The notes under the pieces were generated by a model, which saw only the letters and a program-made list of their open reading frames with translations, was not told the origin of the DNA and did not search any database. Below, in pieces: positions 39,958-42,252 of a stretch of 64,000 nt of DNA. The DNA lies in assembly GCA_009914755.4 (NCBI GenBank), contig CP068257.2, forward strand, positions 30,112,001-30,176,000, in the 5' to 3' direction. The number at the start of each line of letters is the position of its first letter. Position 1 is the first letter of the stretch. The stretch is from the human T2T-CHM13v2.0 reference genome, Homo sapiens. The translations under genes were made by a program, and so were the position numbers.

Positions 39958-41788
39958 ACTGCCACTGCCACCACCACCATCACCACCACCACCACCACCA
40001 TCACCATCATCATCATAATCACAGCCACCACCACCATCATCACCACCACCACCACCACCATCACCATCACCACCATCACCGCCACCACCATCACCATCAT
40101 CATCATAATCACAGCCACCACCACCATCATCATCACCACCACCACCACCACCACCACCATCACCACCATCACCATCACCACCATCACCGCCACCACCATC
40201 ACCACCATCATCACCACCACCATCATCACCATCATCACCATTATCACCATCACCACCACCACCACCATCACCATCATTAGCAGCTATTTAATCACCACCA
40301 CCACCACCACCATCACCGCCACCACCATCACCACCATCATCACCACCACCATCAACACCATCATCACCATTATCACCATCACCACCACTACCACCATCAC
40401 CATCATTAGCAGCTATTTAATCACCACCACCACCACCACCAACACCAACATCACCACTATCCCCATCACCACCACCACCATCATCATCACTGACTACCAC
40501 CATCACCACCATTATTATCATCACCACCACCACCATCATCATCATTACCAACTATTACCATCACTACCACCACCATCATCATGACCACCATCATCATCAT
40601 CACCAACTACCACCATCACCACCACCACCATCATGAACCCCCACTACCATCACCACCACCACCATCATCAACCCCCACTACCACCACCACCACCACCATC
40701 AACCCCCACTACCATCACCACCACCACCATCATCAACCCCCACTACCACCACCACCACCACCATCAACCCCCACTGCCATCACCACCACCACCATCATCA
40801 TCACTGACTACCACCATCACCACCGCTATTATTATCATCACCACCACCACCATCATCATTACCAACTATTACCATCACCACCACCATCATCATGACCACC
40901 ATCATCATCATCACCAACTACCACCATCACCACCACCATCATCACCCCCCACTACCACCACCACCACCACCACCATCAACCCCCACTACCATCACCATGA
41001 CCACCATCATCACCCCCCACTACCATCACCACCACCACCATCATCACCCACTACCATCACCACCACCACCATCATCACCCCCCACTACCACCACCACCAC
41101 CACCACCACCACCATCAACCCCCACTACCACCACCACCACCATCATCAACCCCCACTACCATCACCACCACCATCATCAACCGCCACTACCACCACCACC
41201 ACCACCATCATCAACCCCCACTACCATCACCACCACCATCATCAACCCCCACTACCATCACCACCACCACCATCATCAACCCCCACTACCACTACCACCA
41301 CCACCATCATCAACCCCCACTACCATCACCACCACCACCATCATCAACCCCCACTACCATCACCACCACCACCATCATCATCACTGACTACCACTATCAC
41401 CACCACCACCACCACCACCACCATCACCACCACCACCATCACCACCACCGCCATCATCATCACCACCACCACCACCACCACCATCACCACCATCACCACC
41501 ACCACCACCACCATCACCACCACCATCATCACCATCACCACCACCACTGTCATCACCACCACCACCATCACCACCATCACCACCACCATCACCACCACCA
41601 CCATCACCACCACCACCACCACCATCACCATCACCACCACCACCATCATCATCACTGACTACTACCATCACCACCACCACCACCATCATCACCACCACCA
41701 TCATCATCACCATCCCTGCCACCACCATTATCACCCCCCAACTACCACCACCACCACCACCACCACTACCACCACCACTACCACCACT
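39958..41788. repeat. large G-depleted (CAC/CAT)n-based minisatellite with nested higher-order periodicities
   Basis: About 1.8 kb composed almost only of CAC, CAT, CCA, ACT and ATC triplets. G is nearly absent from the + strand. Sub-blocks: a unit of about 95 bp, twice (39990-40180); a unit of about 133 bp containing CATCATTAGCAGCTATTTAATCACC, twice (40262-40527); a unit of about 311 bp starting CATCATCACTGACTACCACCATCACC, twice (40483-41100); 33-36-bp CAACCCCCACTACCATCACCACCACCACCATCAT units more than 10 times (40640-41380); near-pure (CACCACCACCAT)n (41400-41650). Confidence 0.95.
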
Positions 41789-42163
41789 GTATTAGTCCAT
41801 TCTCATGCTGCTAATTAAGACATACCCGAGACTGGGCAATTTACAAAGGAAAGAGGTTTAATCGATTCATAATCCAGCATGGCTGGGGAGGCCTCAGGAA
41901 ACTTACAATCATGGTGGAGGGGAAGCAAACACATCCTTCTTCACATGGTGGCAGGAAGAATTGCCGAGCAAAGGGGGAAAAGCCCCTTATAAAACCATCA
42001 GATCTCGTGAAAATTCACTCATTATCACGAGAACAGCAGCATGGGGGTGACTGCCCCCATGATTCAATTACCTCCCACCAGGTCCCTCCCACGACATATG
42101 GGGATTATGGGAACTACAATTCAAGATGAGATTTCGGTTGGGACACAAATCCAAATTGTACTA
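41788..42163 (-). mobile_element. THE1-type (ERVL-MaLR) solo LTR, antisense, inserted inside the minisatellite
   Basis: TGTATTAGTCCATTCTCATGCTGCTAATTAAGACATACCCGAGACTGGGCAATTTACAAAGGAAAGAGGTTTAATCGATTCATAATCCAGCATGGCTGGGGAGGCCTCAGGAAACTTACAATCATGGTGGAGGGGAAGCAAAC...GGGACACAAATCCAAATTGTACTA is the reverse complement of the THE1 LTR; flanking pentamers ACCAC (41783-41787) and ACCAC (42164-42168). Confidence 0.9.
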
Positions 42164-42252
42164 ACCACTATCATCACCCCCCACTACCACCACCACCACC
42201 ACCACCATCATCATCATTACCATCATCACCACCACTACCACCATCATCGTCA
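42164..42252. repeat. continuation of the (CAC/CAT)n minisatellite distal to the LTR
   Basis: ACCACTATCATCACCCCCCACTACCACCACCACCACCACCATCATCATCATTACCATCATCACCACCACTACCACCATCATCGTC. Confidence 0.9.

What the first reader, a model, noticed from the sequence alone, without database searches (positions are those of the whole stretch)
39958..42252. 2.3-kb G-depleted (CAC/CAT)n minisatellite with four nested levels of periodicity, bounded by a MIR and split by a THE1 LTR
The + strand here consists almost only of C, A and T. The triplets CAC/CAT/CCA/ACT are organised into 33-36-bp units (CAACCCCCACTACCATCACCACCACCACCATCAT, more than 10 copies). These in turn form higher-order repeats of about 95, 133 and 311 bp, each present at least twice (for example CATCATCACTGACTACCACCATCACC recurs at 40483, 40795, 41370 and 41648). 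The array starts exactly where a MIR element ends (39955). The junction motif TTAGC(AG)CTATTTAATCACC is itself re-copied inside the array at 40270 and 40403, so the boundary was swept into later duplications. An antisense THE1 LTR sits inside the array with ACCAC on both sides, a plausible 5-bp ERVL TSD, and repeat sequence continues beyond it. This suggests the array already existed when THE1 elements were mobile in anthropoid ancestors, and that it has kept homogenising since. Such strand-asymmetric, hierarchically organised arrays are strong candidates for hypervariable VNTRs, replication-slippage hotspots and short-read assembly collapse. Their length may differ greatly between haplotypes.
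Basis: partly seen in the sequence, partly recalled or inferred. Interest (0 to 1): 0.6.

Follow-up and report, generated by a model that had tools for sequence, protein, structure and literature searches.

The report
Compound CCA/TGG minisatellite split by LTR
This is a real but ordinary non-coding tandem repeat in a primate genome: a 1.8-kb array of CCA/TCA triplets, organised into 31-34-bp units and larger duplicated blocks, that begins at the tail of an old MIR element and was later interrupted by a retroviral-type solo LTR.

Summary
The left array is 39959-41787 (1.4% G) and the right remnant is 42164-42252. An antisense ERVL-MaLR solo LTR lies between them at 41788-42163.

Alignment-based tools recover periods of 3, 31/34, 65 (a 34+31 dimer), 129 (not 133) and 311-314 bp. 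All are far above low-complexity nulls. They are 3- and 4-unit multiples in the unit run, plus length variants (90/108/129) of one block in the first domain.

The MIR is sense-oriented and its consensus 3' end falls at 39958, next to the first repeat triplet. The claimed re-copying of the junction motif is no better than chance. The LTR looks MST-like rather than THE1-like. The ACCAC target-site duplication is plausible but weak on its own.

Signature units sit on both sides of the LTR. The LTR-proximal repeat is the most decayed, and block copies (K2P 0.012-0.05) are much younger than MaLR LTR divergence (0.13-0.21). This fits insertion into an existing proto-array followed by growth on the left side.

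No orthologue or allele data could be obtained, so hypervariability and absolute dating remain untested. The array is not coding. It belongs to a well-catalogued class, so interest is low.

The parts
39787..39958 (+). 5'-truncated MIR SINE in sense orientation. Its consensus 3' end (…TTAGCTATTA) abuts the first array triplet.
   Evidence: Local alignment to a MIR consensus recalled from memory gave consensus positions 74-260 of 260, 73% identity over 187 columns and score 169, against a median of 24 for other windows. The reverse strand scored 27. The region also matches other dispersed copies in the window at 12951-13088, 32195-32261 and 52395-52454.
39959..40462 (+). Domain A. CCA/TCA triplets are organised in a block repeat of 90-129 bp, about 4 copies. 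It includes the twice-copied non-triplet insert TTAGCAGCTATTTAAT at 40277 and 40406.
   Evidence: TRF gives period 129, 3.2 copies, 86%. 40164-40312 = 40293-40441 at 97.3%. Offsets 90 and 108 give 95%. Rare G markers recur at offsets 90, 108 and 129.
40463..40798 (+). First copy of the ~314-bp block. It consists of the B segment (40463-40634, three degenerate ACTACC-headed units) followed by five C units (40635-40798) that form a 34+31 = 65-bp dimeric higher-order repeat.
   Evidence: Unit identity is 98% at lag 2 and 87% at lag 1. Offset 65 gives 97.5% over 119 bp. TRF reports period 65.
40777..41378 (+). Second copy of the block. It consists of B' (40777-40945) followed by 13 C units (40943-41378) of 31, 34 or 40 bp.
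   Evidence: B versus B' gives 98.8% identity and K2P 0.012 over 166 aligned bases. Offsets 314/311 appear. There is no unit-lag structure.
41376..41646 (+). Domain D. A third B-start motif is followed by nearly pure CCA/TCA triplets, with older internal duplications at multiples of 3.
   Evidence: TRF finds period 3 only, 81% matches. Offsets 96, 75, 54 and 36 give 86-91%. K2P is 0.105, with 15 transitions and 0 transversions.
41647..41787 (+). LTR-proximal, most decayed part of the left array. It holds a fourth B-start motif and a CACCCCCCAACTACC unit, and ends in ACCAC (41783-41787), the left copy of the putative target-site duplication.
   Evidence: Best-partner identity falls to 0.70-0.84 here, the lowest in the array. 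The sequence was read.
41788..42163 (-). Solo ERVL-MaLR LTR (MST/THE1 group, MST-like), 376 bp and full length.
   Evidence: blastn gives 75-82% identity over 1-367 of 375 bases to four other LTR copies in the window. Two of those flank a 1.5-kb internal region, and all five were aligned. K2P to them is 0.13-0.21. The composition is normal, with 23% G.
42164..42252 (+). Right remnant of the array. It begins with ACCAC (42164-42168, the right copy of the putative TSD), then one CACCCCCCACTACC unit and a triplet tail.
   Evidence: A 34-mer match at 42175 is identical to the unit at 40943. The best local alignment is to 41065-41147, with 43 of the first 44 bases identical. TRF gives period 3, 21 copies.

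Best explanation
This is a selectively neutral, non-coding compound tandem repeat. It grew stepwise by ordinary repeat-mutation processes.

1. An ancient MIR SINE ends at 39958, and an (ACC/ATC)n triplet microsatellite arose directly at its 3' tail. The adjacency is shown. The idea that the tail seeded the repeat is inferred.
2. A variant head, CA(A/C)CCCCCACTACC, with one extra base turned the triplet tract into 31/34/40-bp units. Their lengths differ by multiples of 3, so triplet slippage continues inside units. These units were amplified by unequal exchange or replication template switching. The unit structure is shown. The mechanism is inferred.
3. A primate-specific ERVL-MaLR element inserted into this proto-array about 89 bp from its right edge and recombined to a solo LTR, duplicating ACCAC. 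This is inferred from the signature units on both sides and from phase continuity.
4. The left part then kept growing away from the LTR through block duplications: a 90-129-bp block about 4 times, the 65-bp dimer, and the 314-bp B+C block twice. The short right remnant and the LTR-proximal edge simply decayed. The relative ages are shown by divergence.

The extreme strand asymmetry is a founder effect. A G-free unit was amplified faster than point mutations could add G. The 25 G's fall into about 14 sequence contexts, many of them copied at block offsets.
For: - **Periods and duplications are far above chance**.
- **Unit lengths are 31, 34 and 40, all 1 mod 3**. The reading frame therefore rotates, and the 341-aa and 308-aa ORFs switch between His, Pro and Thr runs. 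The ORFs have no Pfam family and no protein homologue.
- **The MIR consensus 3' end lies exactly at 39958**.
- **The LTR is homologous over its full length to four other MaLR LTRs**.
- **In-window controls show this family makes 5-bp TSDs.** These are AAGGT/AAGAT for the full-length element and GTCGG/GTTGG for a solo LTR.
- **CACCCCCCACTACC units occur on both sides of the LTR**.
- **Phase continuity.** Removing one ACCAC restores an unbroken ACC-phase run that ends in the canonical ...ATCAT|CACCCCCC unit junction (read).
- **Relative ages.** K2P of block copies is 0.012-0.049, against 0.144 between the LTRs of the full-length element and 0.13-0.21 between LTR copies.
- **Age profile.** LTR-proximal segments are the most diverged (0.70-0.79). 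The youngest blocks lie 0.5-1.6 kb to the left (0.975-0.988).
- **Rare G markers recur at offsets 90, 108, 129, 311 and 314**.
- **Literature.** Higher-order block duplications are common in euchromatic human tandem repeats, with 29,964 loci reported (bioRxiv 10.1101/2024.08.07.607105).
Against: - No orthologous or allelic sequence was obtained. The order of events and all ages rest on one haplotype and on the assumption that the array and the LTRs mutate at similar per-site rates.
- ACCAC makes up 11.6% of all array 5-mers, and two random array 5-mers match with p = 0.07. The TSD alone is therefore weak evidence.
- The LTR's 5' terminus (in LTR sense) is degenerate, with 8 of 13 bases matching the family. 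An alternative boundary at 42173 would need a 9-bp insertion and would leave no TSD.
- The MIR boundary and the MST-versus-THE1 call depend on consensus sequences recalled from memory, because no repeat library was available.
- Seeding from the MIR tail is inferred from adjacency only.
Confidence: 0.8

Rival explanations
1. LTR first. The MaLR element landed in or beside a very short CCA microsatellite or in unique DNA. Essentially the whole array, including the 34-bp units on both sides, arose afterwards and spread around the LTR.
For: Most of today's 1.8 kb is demonstrably younger than typical MaLR divergence. The right piece is only 89 bp. The TSD could be a chance match.
Against: The non-trivial head CACCCCCCACTACC occurs within 60 bp of the LTR on both sides. 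Independent origin of the same unit on both sides, or transfer across a 376-bp non-repeat insert, is less parsimonious. The LTR-adjacent repeat is the oldest-looking part of the array, not the youngest.
Confidence: 0.15
2. The array is a functional recombination or instability element. The idea is a dense cluster of PRDM9-A motif matches that acts as a meiotic double-strand-break hotspot and drives its own turnover. A variant is that it is a long (TGG)n tract able to mediate non-allelic rearrangements, like the 14q32.2 repeats.
For: Twenty of the window's 30 exact matches to CCNCCNTNNCCNC lie in the array, all as CCACCATCACC[A/G]C, against 1.95 expected for the whole window. PRDM9 ChIP peaks are often minisatellite-like repeats carrying many motif copies, and such repeats can be unstable (PMC4102438). 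TGG tracts of about 500 bp flank the recurrent 14q32.2 deletion (PMC3985205). The minus strand has 54 two-tetrad quadruplex motifs covering 70% of its length, and (TGG)n-type sequences form G2-tract quadruplexes (PMC7102960).
Against: The motif matches follow automatically from CCA-CCA-TCA-CCA composition, and only a fraction of motif instances are hotspots. There is no canonical three-tetrad G4 motif. No second CCA/TGG array lies in the 64-kb window. The youngest large duplications still differ by 1.2-2.7%, so there is no sign of very recent homogenisation. Most human tandem-repeat loci are length-invariant (60.5%).
Confidence: 0.2
3. The array encodes a histidine/threonine/proline-rich, or on the other strand a glycine/valine-rich, repetitive protein exon.
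For: There are long ORFs of 341 and 308 aa on the plus strand and 103-136 aa on the minus strand.
Against: A G-free strand cannot contain TGA or TAG, so long ORFs are automatic. Unit lengths of 31/34/40/65 are not multiples of 3, so the frame rotates from unit to unit. There is no Pfam family, no homologue among 5.8 billion proteins and no recorded gene call.
Confidence: 0.01
4. The structure is an assembly artefact, produced by collapse or mis-joining of a simple repeat.
For: Low-complexity arrays of this kind are hard to assemble, and no independent assembly could be compared.
Against: The array has a coherent, non-random architecture. Diverged block copies, marker substitutions copied at consistent offsets, and clean junctions to the MIR, the LTR and the unique flank are all present. 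A collapsed or chimeric assembly would not be expected to produce this.
Confidence: 0.04

Closest known systems
Compound (mosaic) minisatellites / VNTRs with higher-order block duplications in euchromatin, as catalogued from long-read assemblies (TRCompDB; bioRxiv 10.1101/2024.08.07.607105)
   Same: Both have tandem units of tens of bp built from a microsatellite-like core, several unit variants, and duplication of multi-unit blocks. Here the blocks are the 65-bp dimer, the 129-bp block and the 314-bp block.
   Different: Population variability, which is the defining property of a VNTR, could not be examined. This array is unusually strand-asymmetric (1.4% G) and carries a transposon insertion.
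Large (TGG)n/(CCA)n tracts, such as the ~500-bp tracts flanking the recurrent 1.1-Mb 14q32.2 microdeletion (Béna et al. 2010, as described in PMC3985205)
   Same: The triplet motif is the same and the length is large: TRF reports period 3 and 599 copies over 1.8 kb. The G-rich strand is full of G2 tracts.
   Different: This array is much more interrupted (74% matches) and is organised into 34-bp units. No partner tract lies within the window. No microRNA genes were found, which, from my memory of the locus map, argues against the distal 14q32.2 tract. No rearrangement role is shown.
Classical G-rich hypervariable minisatellites (MS1, MS32, CEB1, B6.7) and the (CAC)n/(GTG)n fingerprinting loci (from general knowledge)
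   Same: Both show strand asymmetry with a G-rich strand, interspersed variant repeats and proximity to dispersed repeats. MS32 also lies within a retroviral LTR-like element.
   Different: Those loci have highly homogeneous units and measured germline instability. Here, units in the long run are only about 88% alike, and instability is unmeasured.
Microsatellite birth at retroposon 3' tails, e.g. Alu poly(A)-derived microsatellites (from general knowledge)
   Same: The repeat begins at the exact 3' end of a SINE and continues its triplet-like ATT/ACT tail in phase.
   Different: The SINE here is a MIR, which has no poly(A) tail. The link is by adjacency only.

Membership tests
Minisatellite / VNTR | Head-to-tail tandem units of about 10-100 bp, in many copies | tested here: met
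   TRF gives period 34 with 53.6 copies, plus periods 31 and 65. There are 18 copies of the 34-mer at 3 mismatches or fewer.
Minisatellite / VNTR | Copy number varies between individuals | not testable with these tools
   No allele was retrieved from the viral, metagenome or genome collections or from the protein-based look-ups.
Higher-order repeat organisation | Multi-unit blocks are more similar to each other than neighbouring units are | tested here: met
   In run 1, identity is 98% at lag 2 and 87% at lag 1. The 129-bp blocks are 97.3% identical, and the 314-bp block's B segments are 98.8% identical. The feature is not met in run 2, where all lags give about 88%.
ERVL-MaLR solo LTR | Full-length homology to other MaLR LTRs, including LTRs that flank an internal region | tested here: met
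   Identity is 75-82% over 1-367 of 375 bases to four copies. The copies at 21117-21469 and 22982-23298 bracket a 1.5-kb internal part.
ERVL-MaLR solo LTR | 5-bp target-site duplication | tested here: inconclusive
   ACCAC/ACCAC matches 5 of 5, but ACCAC is 11.6% of array 5-mers. Phase continuity after removing one copy adds weak support. In-window controls show 4-of-5 TSDs for two other copies.
   The LTR groups with 21117 and 22982 through the GATTGTAAGTTTCCTGAGGCC segment, which contains the MstII site. The THE1-like copies 34072 and 1839 lack this segment. Assigning that feature to MST rests on memory, because no Dfam or Repbase library was available. PMC10735291 gives ages only.
MIR SINE | Homology to the MIR consensus, ending at its 3' end | tested here: met
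   Identity is 73% over 187 columns, covering consensus positions 74-260 of 260 and ending at 39958. The caveat is that the consensus was recalled from memory. It also detects other copies in the window, with scores of 158-174.
Expanded (TGG)n rearrangement substrate (14q32.2 type) | Long TGG/CCA tract paired with a second tract in the same orientation | not testable with these tools
   The tract itself is present. There is no second tract in the 64-kb window. Partners at megabase distance cannot be examined.
PRDM9-dependent recombination hotspot | 13-mer CCNCCNTNNCCNC present | tested here: met
   There are 20 exact matches in the array. They follow from the repeat composition.
PRDM9-dependent recombination hotspot | Elevated crossover or DSB activity | not testable with these tools
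   No recombination or ChIP data are available here.
Protein-coding tandem repeat | Repeat period a multiple of 3 with a conserved frame, and homologues or domains | tested here: not met
   Periods are 31/34/40/65. There are 0 Pfam families and 0 homologues.

The most novel reading that the evidence does not exclude
The array, with 20 PRDM9-A motif matches in 1.8 kb on a (TGG)n-type G2-tract strand, might be an active meiotic hotspot and a hypermutable VNTR that is biased towards expansion. Its youngest 314-bp block duplication (K2P 0.012) might then be hominine- or human-specific. Like the 14q32.2 TGG tracts, it might also serve as a substrate for recurrent rearrangement with a distant partner tract. 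The single CTCF-core motif 105 bp from its edge could mark a repeat-adjacent boundary element.
Probability: 0.15. Interest if true: 0.4.

Novelty: already known. Interest (0 to 1): 0.15.

Why it matters
Little would change if every detail were confirmed. Compound triplet-derived minisatellites with block duplications and transposon insertions are catalogued by the tens of thousands in human long-read data. This one would appear in standard simple-repeat and transposon annotation.

Its practical value is modest:
- It is a clean worked example of stepwise growth from microsatellite to minisatellite to higher-order repeat, with an internal time marker (the LTR).
- It is a locus where short-read mapping is likely to be unreliable.
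- It is one of the longer (TGG)n-type tracts. If a same-orientation partner exists nearby, it could be worth checking as a rearrangement substrate.

Tried and rejected
1. **Orthologue or allele retrieval.**
   - A unit-pattern scan of viral contigs and metagenome contigs gave 98 loci. All were single chance matches in unrelated ACC-rich DNA.
   - blastn of the flanks and the LTR against those loci found nothing orthologous.
   - A unique-flank pattern gave 0 hits in genome contigs and viral contigs.
2. **Protein route to human or primate contigs.**
   - Exact look-ups of three window ORFs found nothing.
   - A homology search with the ORF spanning LTR, right array and flank returned only ORFs from other MaLR LTR copies, with about 27% coverage.
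   - The array ORF gave 8000 low-complexity candidates, none significant.
3. **Generic repeat finder.** On the array it was swamped by low complexity. I replaced it with a stringent diagonal scan and a unit matrix.
4. **Junction-motif re-copying.** Rejected on an alignment null.
5. **Hairpin-mediated slippage.** Neither strand can form Watson-Crick hairpins, with a DNA MFE of 0.0 kcal/mol. There is no canonical G3 quadruplex motif, only two-tetrad motifs. ViennaRNA's quadruplex energies for these were not treated as reliable.
6. **Cross-LTR homogenisation.** The right piece's 43/44 match to a left unit is not significant once the trivial CCA run and the choice of best unit are allowed for.
7. 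**Literature.**
   - A search for the MIR consensus string found nothing.
   - The primary papers of Béna 2010 and Buard 1998 are not held.
8. **Locus identity.** The chromosome and gene context could not be determined.
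Full report
**Observation**

The region was read directly and its composition measured. From 39958 to 41788 the plus strand holds 25 G in 1831 bases (1.4%), and GC skew is -0.92 to -0.98. A 376-bp stretch of normal composition (23% G) follows. Then come 89 more bases of the same G-poor repeat, with a single G.

Tandem Repeats Finder reports period 3 (CCA; 599 copies, 74% matches) and period 34 (53.6 copies) over the whole left part. Run on sub-domains, it also reports periods 31, 65 and 129.

The 26-mer marker is at 40482, 40796, 41376 and 41647.

A stringent ungapped diagonal scan (match +1, mismatch -4) gave these long duplications:

| Offset (bp) | Segments | Identity |
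|---|---|---|
| 129 | 40164-40312 = 40293-40441 | 97.3% |
| 314/311 | 40463-40633 = 40777-40944 | 94-98.5% in its two ungapped pieces (98.8% gapped) |
| 65 | 40617-40735 = 40682-40800 | 97.5% |
| 478-543 | between the two unit runs | 95-96% |

The best segment score is 129. Triplet-shuffled arrays reach at most 25 and first-order triplet Markov arrays at most 82. The hierarchy is therefore not a by-product of low complexity.

**Anatomy**

Parsing by the head motif CA(A/C)CCCCCACTACC gives units of 31, 34 or 40 bp. All are 1 mod 3, and they differ by whole triplets. The array divides as follows:

- **Domain A (39959-40462).** CCA/TCA triplets in a 90-129-bp block repeated about four times.
- **Block copy 1.** This is the B segment (40463-40634) plus five C units.
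- **Block copy 2.** This is B' (40777-40945) plus thirteen C units, ending at 41378.
- **Domain D (41376-41646).** Nearly pure triplets behind a third B-start motif.
- **Decayed stretch (41647-41787).** It begins with a fourth B-start motif and ends at the LTR.

The unit identity matrix shows a true dimeric higher-order repeat in the first C run, with 98% identity at lag 2 and 87% at lag 1. The second run has no lag structure, at about 88% for every lag.

The 25 G's fall into about 14 sequence contexts. Several recur at offsets 90, 108, 129, 311 and 314. This independently traces the duplications. It also shows that G-depletion reflects amplification of a G-free founder faster than point mutation adds G.

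**Not coding**

A G-free strand cannot carry TGA or TAG, so ORFs of 341 and 308 aa appear automatically. The frame rotates from unit to unit, giving alternating His, Pro and Thr runs. No Pfam family matches. No homologue was found among 5.8 billion proteins, and no gene call is on record.

**Flanking and inserted elements**

*MIR.* A MIR consensus that I recalled from memory aligns in sense orientation to 39787-39958. The alignment covers consensus positions 74-260 of 260 at 73% identity, with score 169 against a median of 24 elsewhere. The same consensus picks up other copies in the window, and within-window blastn agrees that this is an old dispersed repeat. The consensus ends at 39958, and the first array triplets follow in the same triplet phase (GCT ATT ACT GCC ACT GCC ACC ACC ...).

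The internal TTAGCAGCTATTTAAT insert, at 40277 and 40406 and duplicated with the 129-bp block, aligns to the MIR end no better than to 8.6-9% of arbitrary windows.

*LTR.* The insert at 41788-42163 is a full-length solo LTR of the ERVL-MaLR group. It matches four other copies in the window at 75-82%. Two of them bracket a 1.5-kb internal region, forming a full-length element at 21117-23298.

In the alignment the array LTR shares GATTGTAAGTTTCCTGAGGCC, which contains an MstII site, with that element. The other two copies lack this segment. MST and THE1 are primate-specific, and MSTA, MSTB and THE1A-D are simian-only, under 70 My old (PMC10735291).

*Target-site duplication.* ACCAC flanks the LTR on both sides. 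By itself this is weak, because ACCAC is 11.6% of array 5-mers and random 5-mer identity is 0.07. Three observations add support:
- Two other MaLR copies in the window show 4-of-5 TSDs of 5 bp.
- The bases right of 42163 match the canonical array junction ACCACCATCATCACCCCCC at 18 of 19 positions.
- Removing one ACCAC restores an uninterrupted triplet phase that ends in the canonical ...ATCAT|CACCCCCC unit boundary.

An alternative LTR end at 42173 would require a 9-bp insertion and would leave no TSD. It cannot be excluded.

**Order of events**

Signature C-type units lie within 60 bp of the LTR on both sides. The LTR therefore most likely landed in an array that already had 34-bp units.

The age profile shows that the LTR-proximal left edge and the right remnant have the lowest best-partner identity (0.70-0.79). 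The youngest blocks (0.975-0.988) lie 0.5-1.6 kb further left.

Divergences compare as follows:

| Comparison | K2P |
|---|---|
| B blocks | 0.012 |
| 65-bp and 129-bp duplications | 0.026-0.027 |
| Between the two unit runs | 0.035-0.049 |
| Domain D internal duplications | 0.105 |
| Two LTRs of the full-length MaLR | 0.144 |
| Between LTR copies | 0.13-0.21 |

Assuming similar per-site rates, most of the present array is several-fold younger than MaLR activity. It rests on internal evidence only.

**Mechanism and possible activity**

Neither strand can form Watson-Crick hairpins, with a DNA MFE of 0.0. Classical hairpin-driven slippage is therefore not indicated. The G-rich strand has no canonical three-tetrad quadruplex motif, but it has 54 two-tetrad motifs covering 70% of its length. 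(TGG)n-type G2-tract sequences are known to fold into quadruplexes (PMC7102960).

Twenty of the window's 30 exact matches to the PRDM9 13-mer CCNCCNTNNCCNC lie in the array. They follow automatically from CCA-CCA-TCA-CCA, and only a fraction of motif instances are hotspots. Even so, minisatellite-like repeats with many motif copies do occur in PRDM9 ChIP peaks (PMC4102438).

Long (TGG)n tracts flank a recurrent 14q32.2 microdeletion (PMC3985205). No partner tract is present in this window.

**What could not be done**

No orthologue or second allele could be obtained by DNA pattern scans or through predicted-protein databases. Hypervariability, assembly collapse and absolute dating therefore remain untested.

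On present knowledge, most human tandem-repeat loci are length-invariant, and about 30,000 show higher-order block duplications. The architecture is common, and variability is not guaranteed.

**Verdict**

This is a real, well-structured but ordinary compound (CCA/TGG)n-derived minisatellite. It sits next to a MIR tail, is interrupted by an MST/THE1-group solo LTR, and has no sign of coding or other function. Interest is low and the kind is already known.

Noticed in passing
window 42357-42369 (+): The only match in the whole 64-kb window to the CTCF core CCASYAGRKGGCR (CCACCAGGGGGCA) lies 105 bp right of the array's end. About 0.11 matches are expected per window. Whether the site is bound is unknown.
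   Followed up: partly
window 21117-23298 (+): A full-length ERVL-MaLR element. Its LTRs are at 21117-21469 and about 22982-23298 (K2P 0.144), it has a 1.5-kb internal region, and its TSD is AAGGT/AAGAT. The internal ORFs at 21564-22133 and 22019-22435 have no Pfam match.
   Followed up: partly
window 34072-34432 and 1839-2183 (+): Two further solo MaLR LTRs of the type that lacks the AAGTTTCCT segment (THE1-like from memory). The first has the TSD GTCGG/GTTGG.
   Followed up: partly
window 13038-13210: An 84-bp unit is duplicated in tandem (2.0 copies, 94% matches) next to a MIR-like copy at 12951-13088.
   Followed up: no
window 31503-31575: A perfect tandem duplication of a 37-bp unit, 100% identical and so probably very recent.
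   Followed up: no
window 17027-17218; 60630-60803; 36540-36587: Other simple repeats: a polypyrimidine (CTCC/TTCC)n tract, a (CTTT)n tract of 44 copies, and a T run of 48. The (CTTT)n lies beside Alu elements. The Alu at 61119-61266 scores as Metazoa_SRP in Rfam.
   Followed up: no
window 24355-24702 (-): An ORF whose translation looks like the C-terminal part of LINE-1 ORF2. I recognised it by eye and did not test it.
   Followed up: no
L087 2257-4475 (metagenome contig Ga0123352_10043820): An unrelated 2.2-kb G-poor, ACC-rich array on a metagenome contig. It aligns to the window array at about 73% purely through shared composition. It shows that strand-asymmetric ACC arrays of this kind arise independently in other genomes.
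   Followed up: no
window 39959-41787, base composition: T outnumbers G about 10 to 1 (244 versus 25) on the plus strand. Both C-to-T and A-to-G are transitions away from an ACC founder. The excess of T probably reflects amplification of ATC-containing units, or an ATT-type founder tail, rather than mutation bias. This was not resolved.
   Followed up: no
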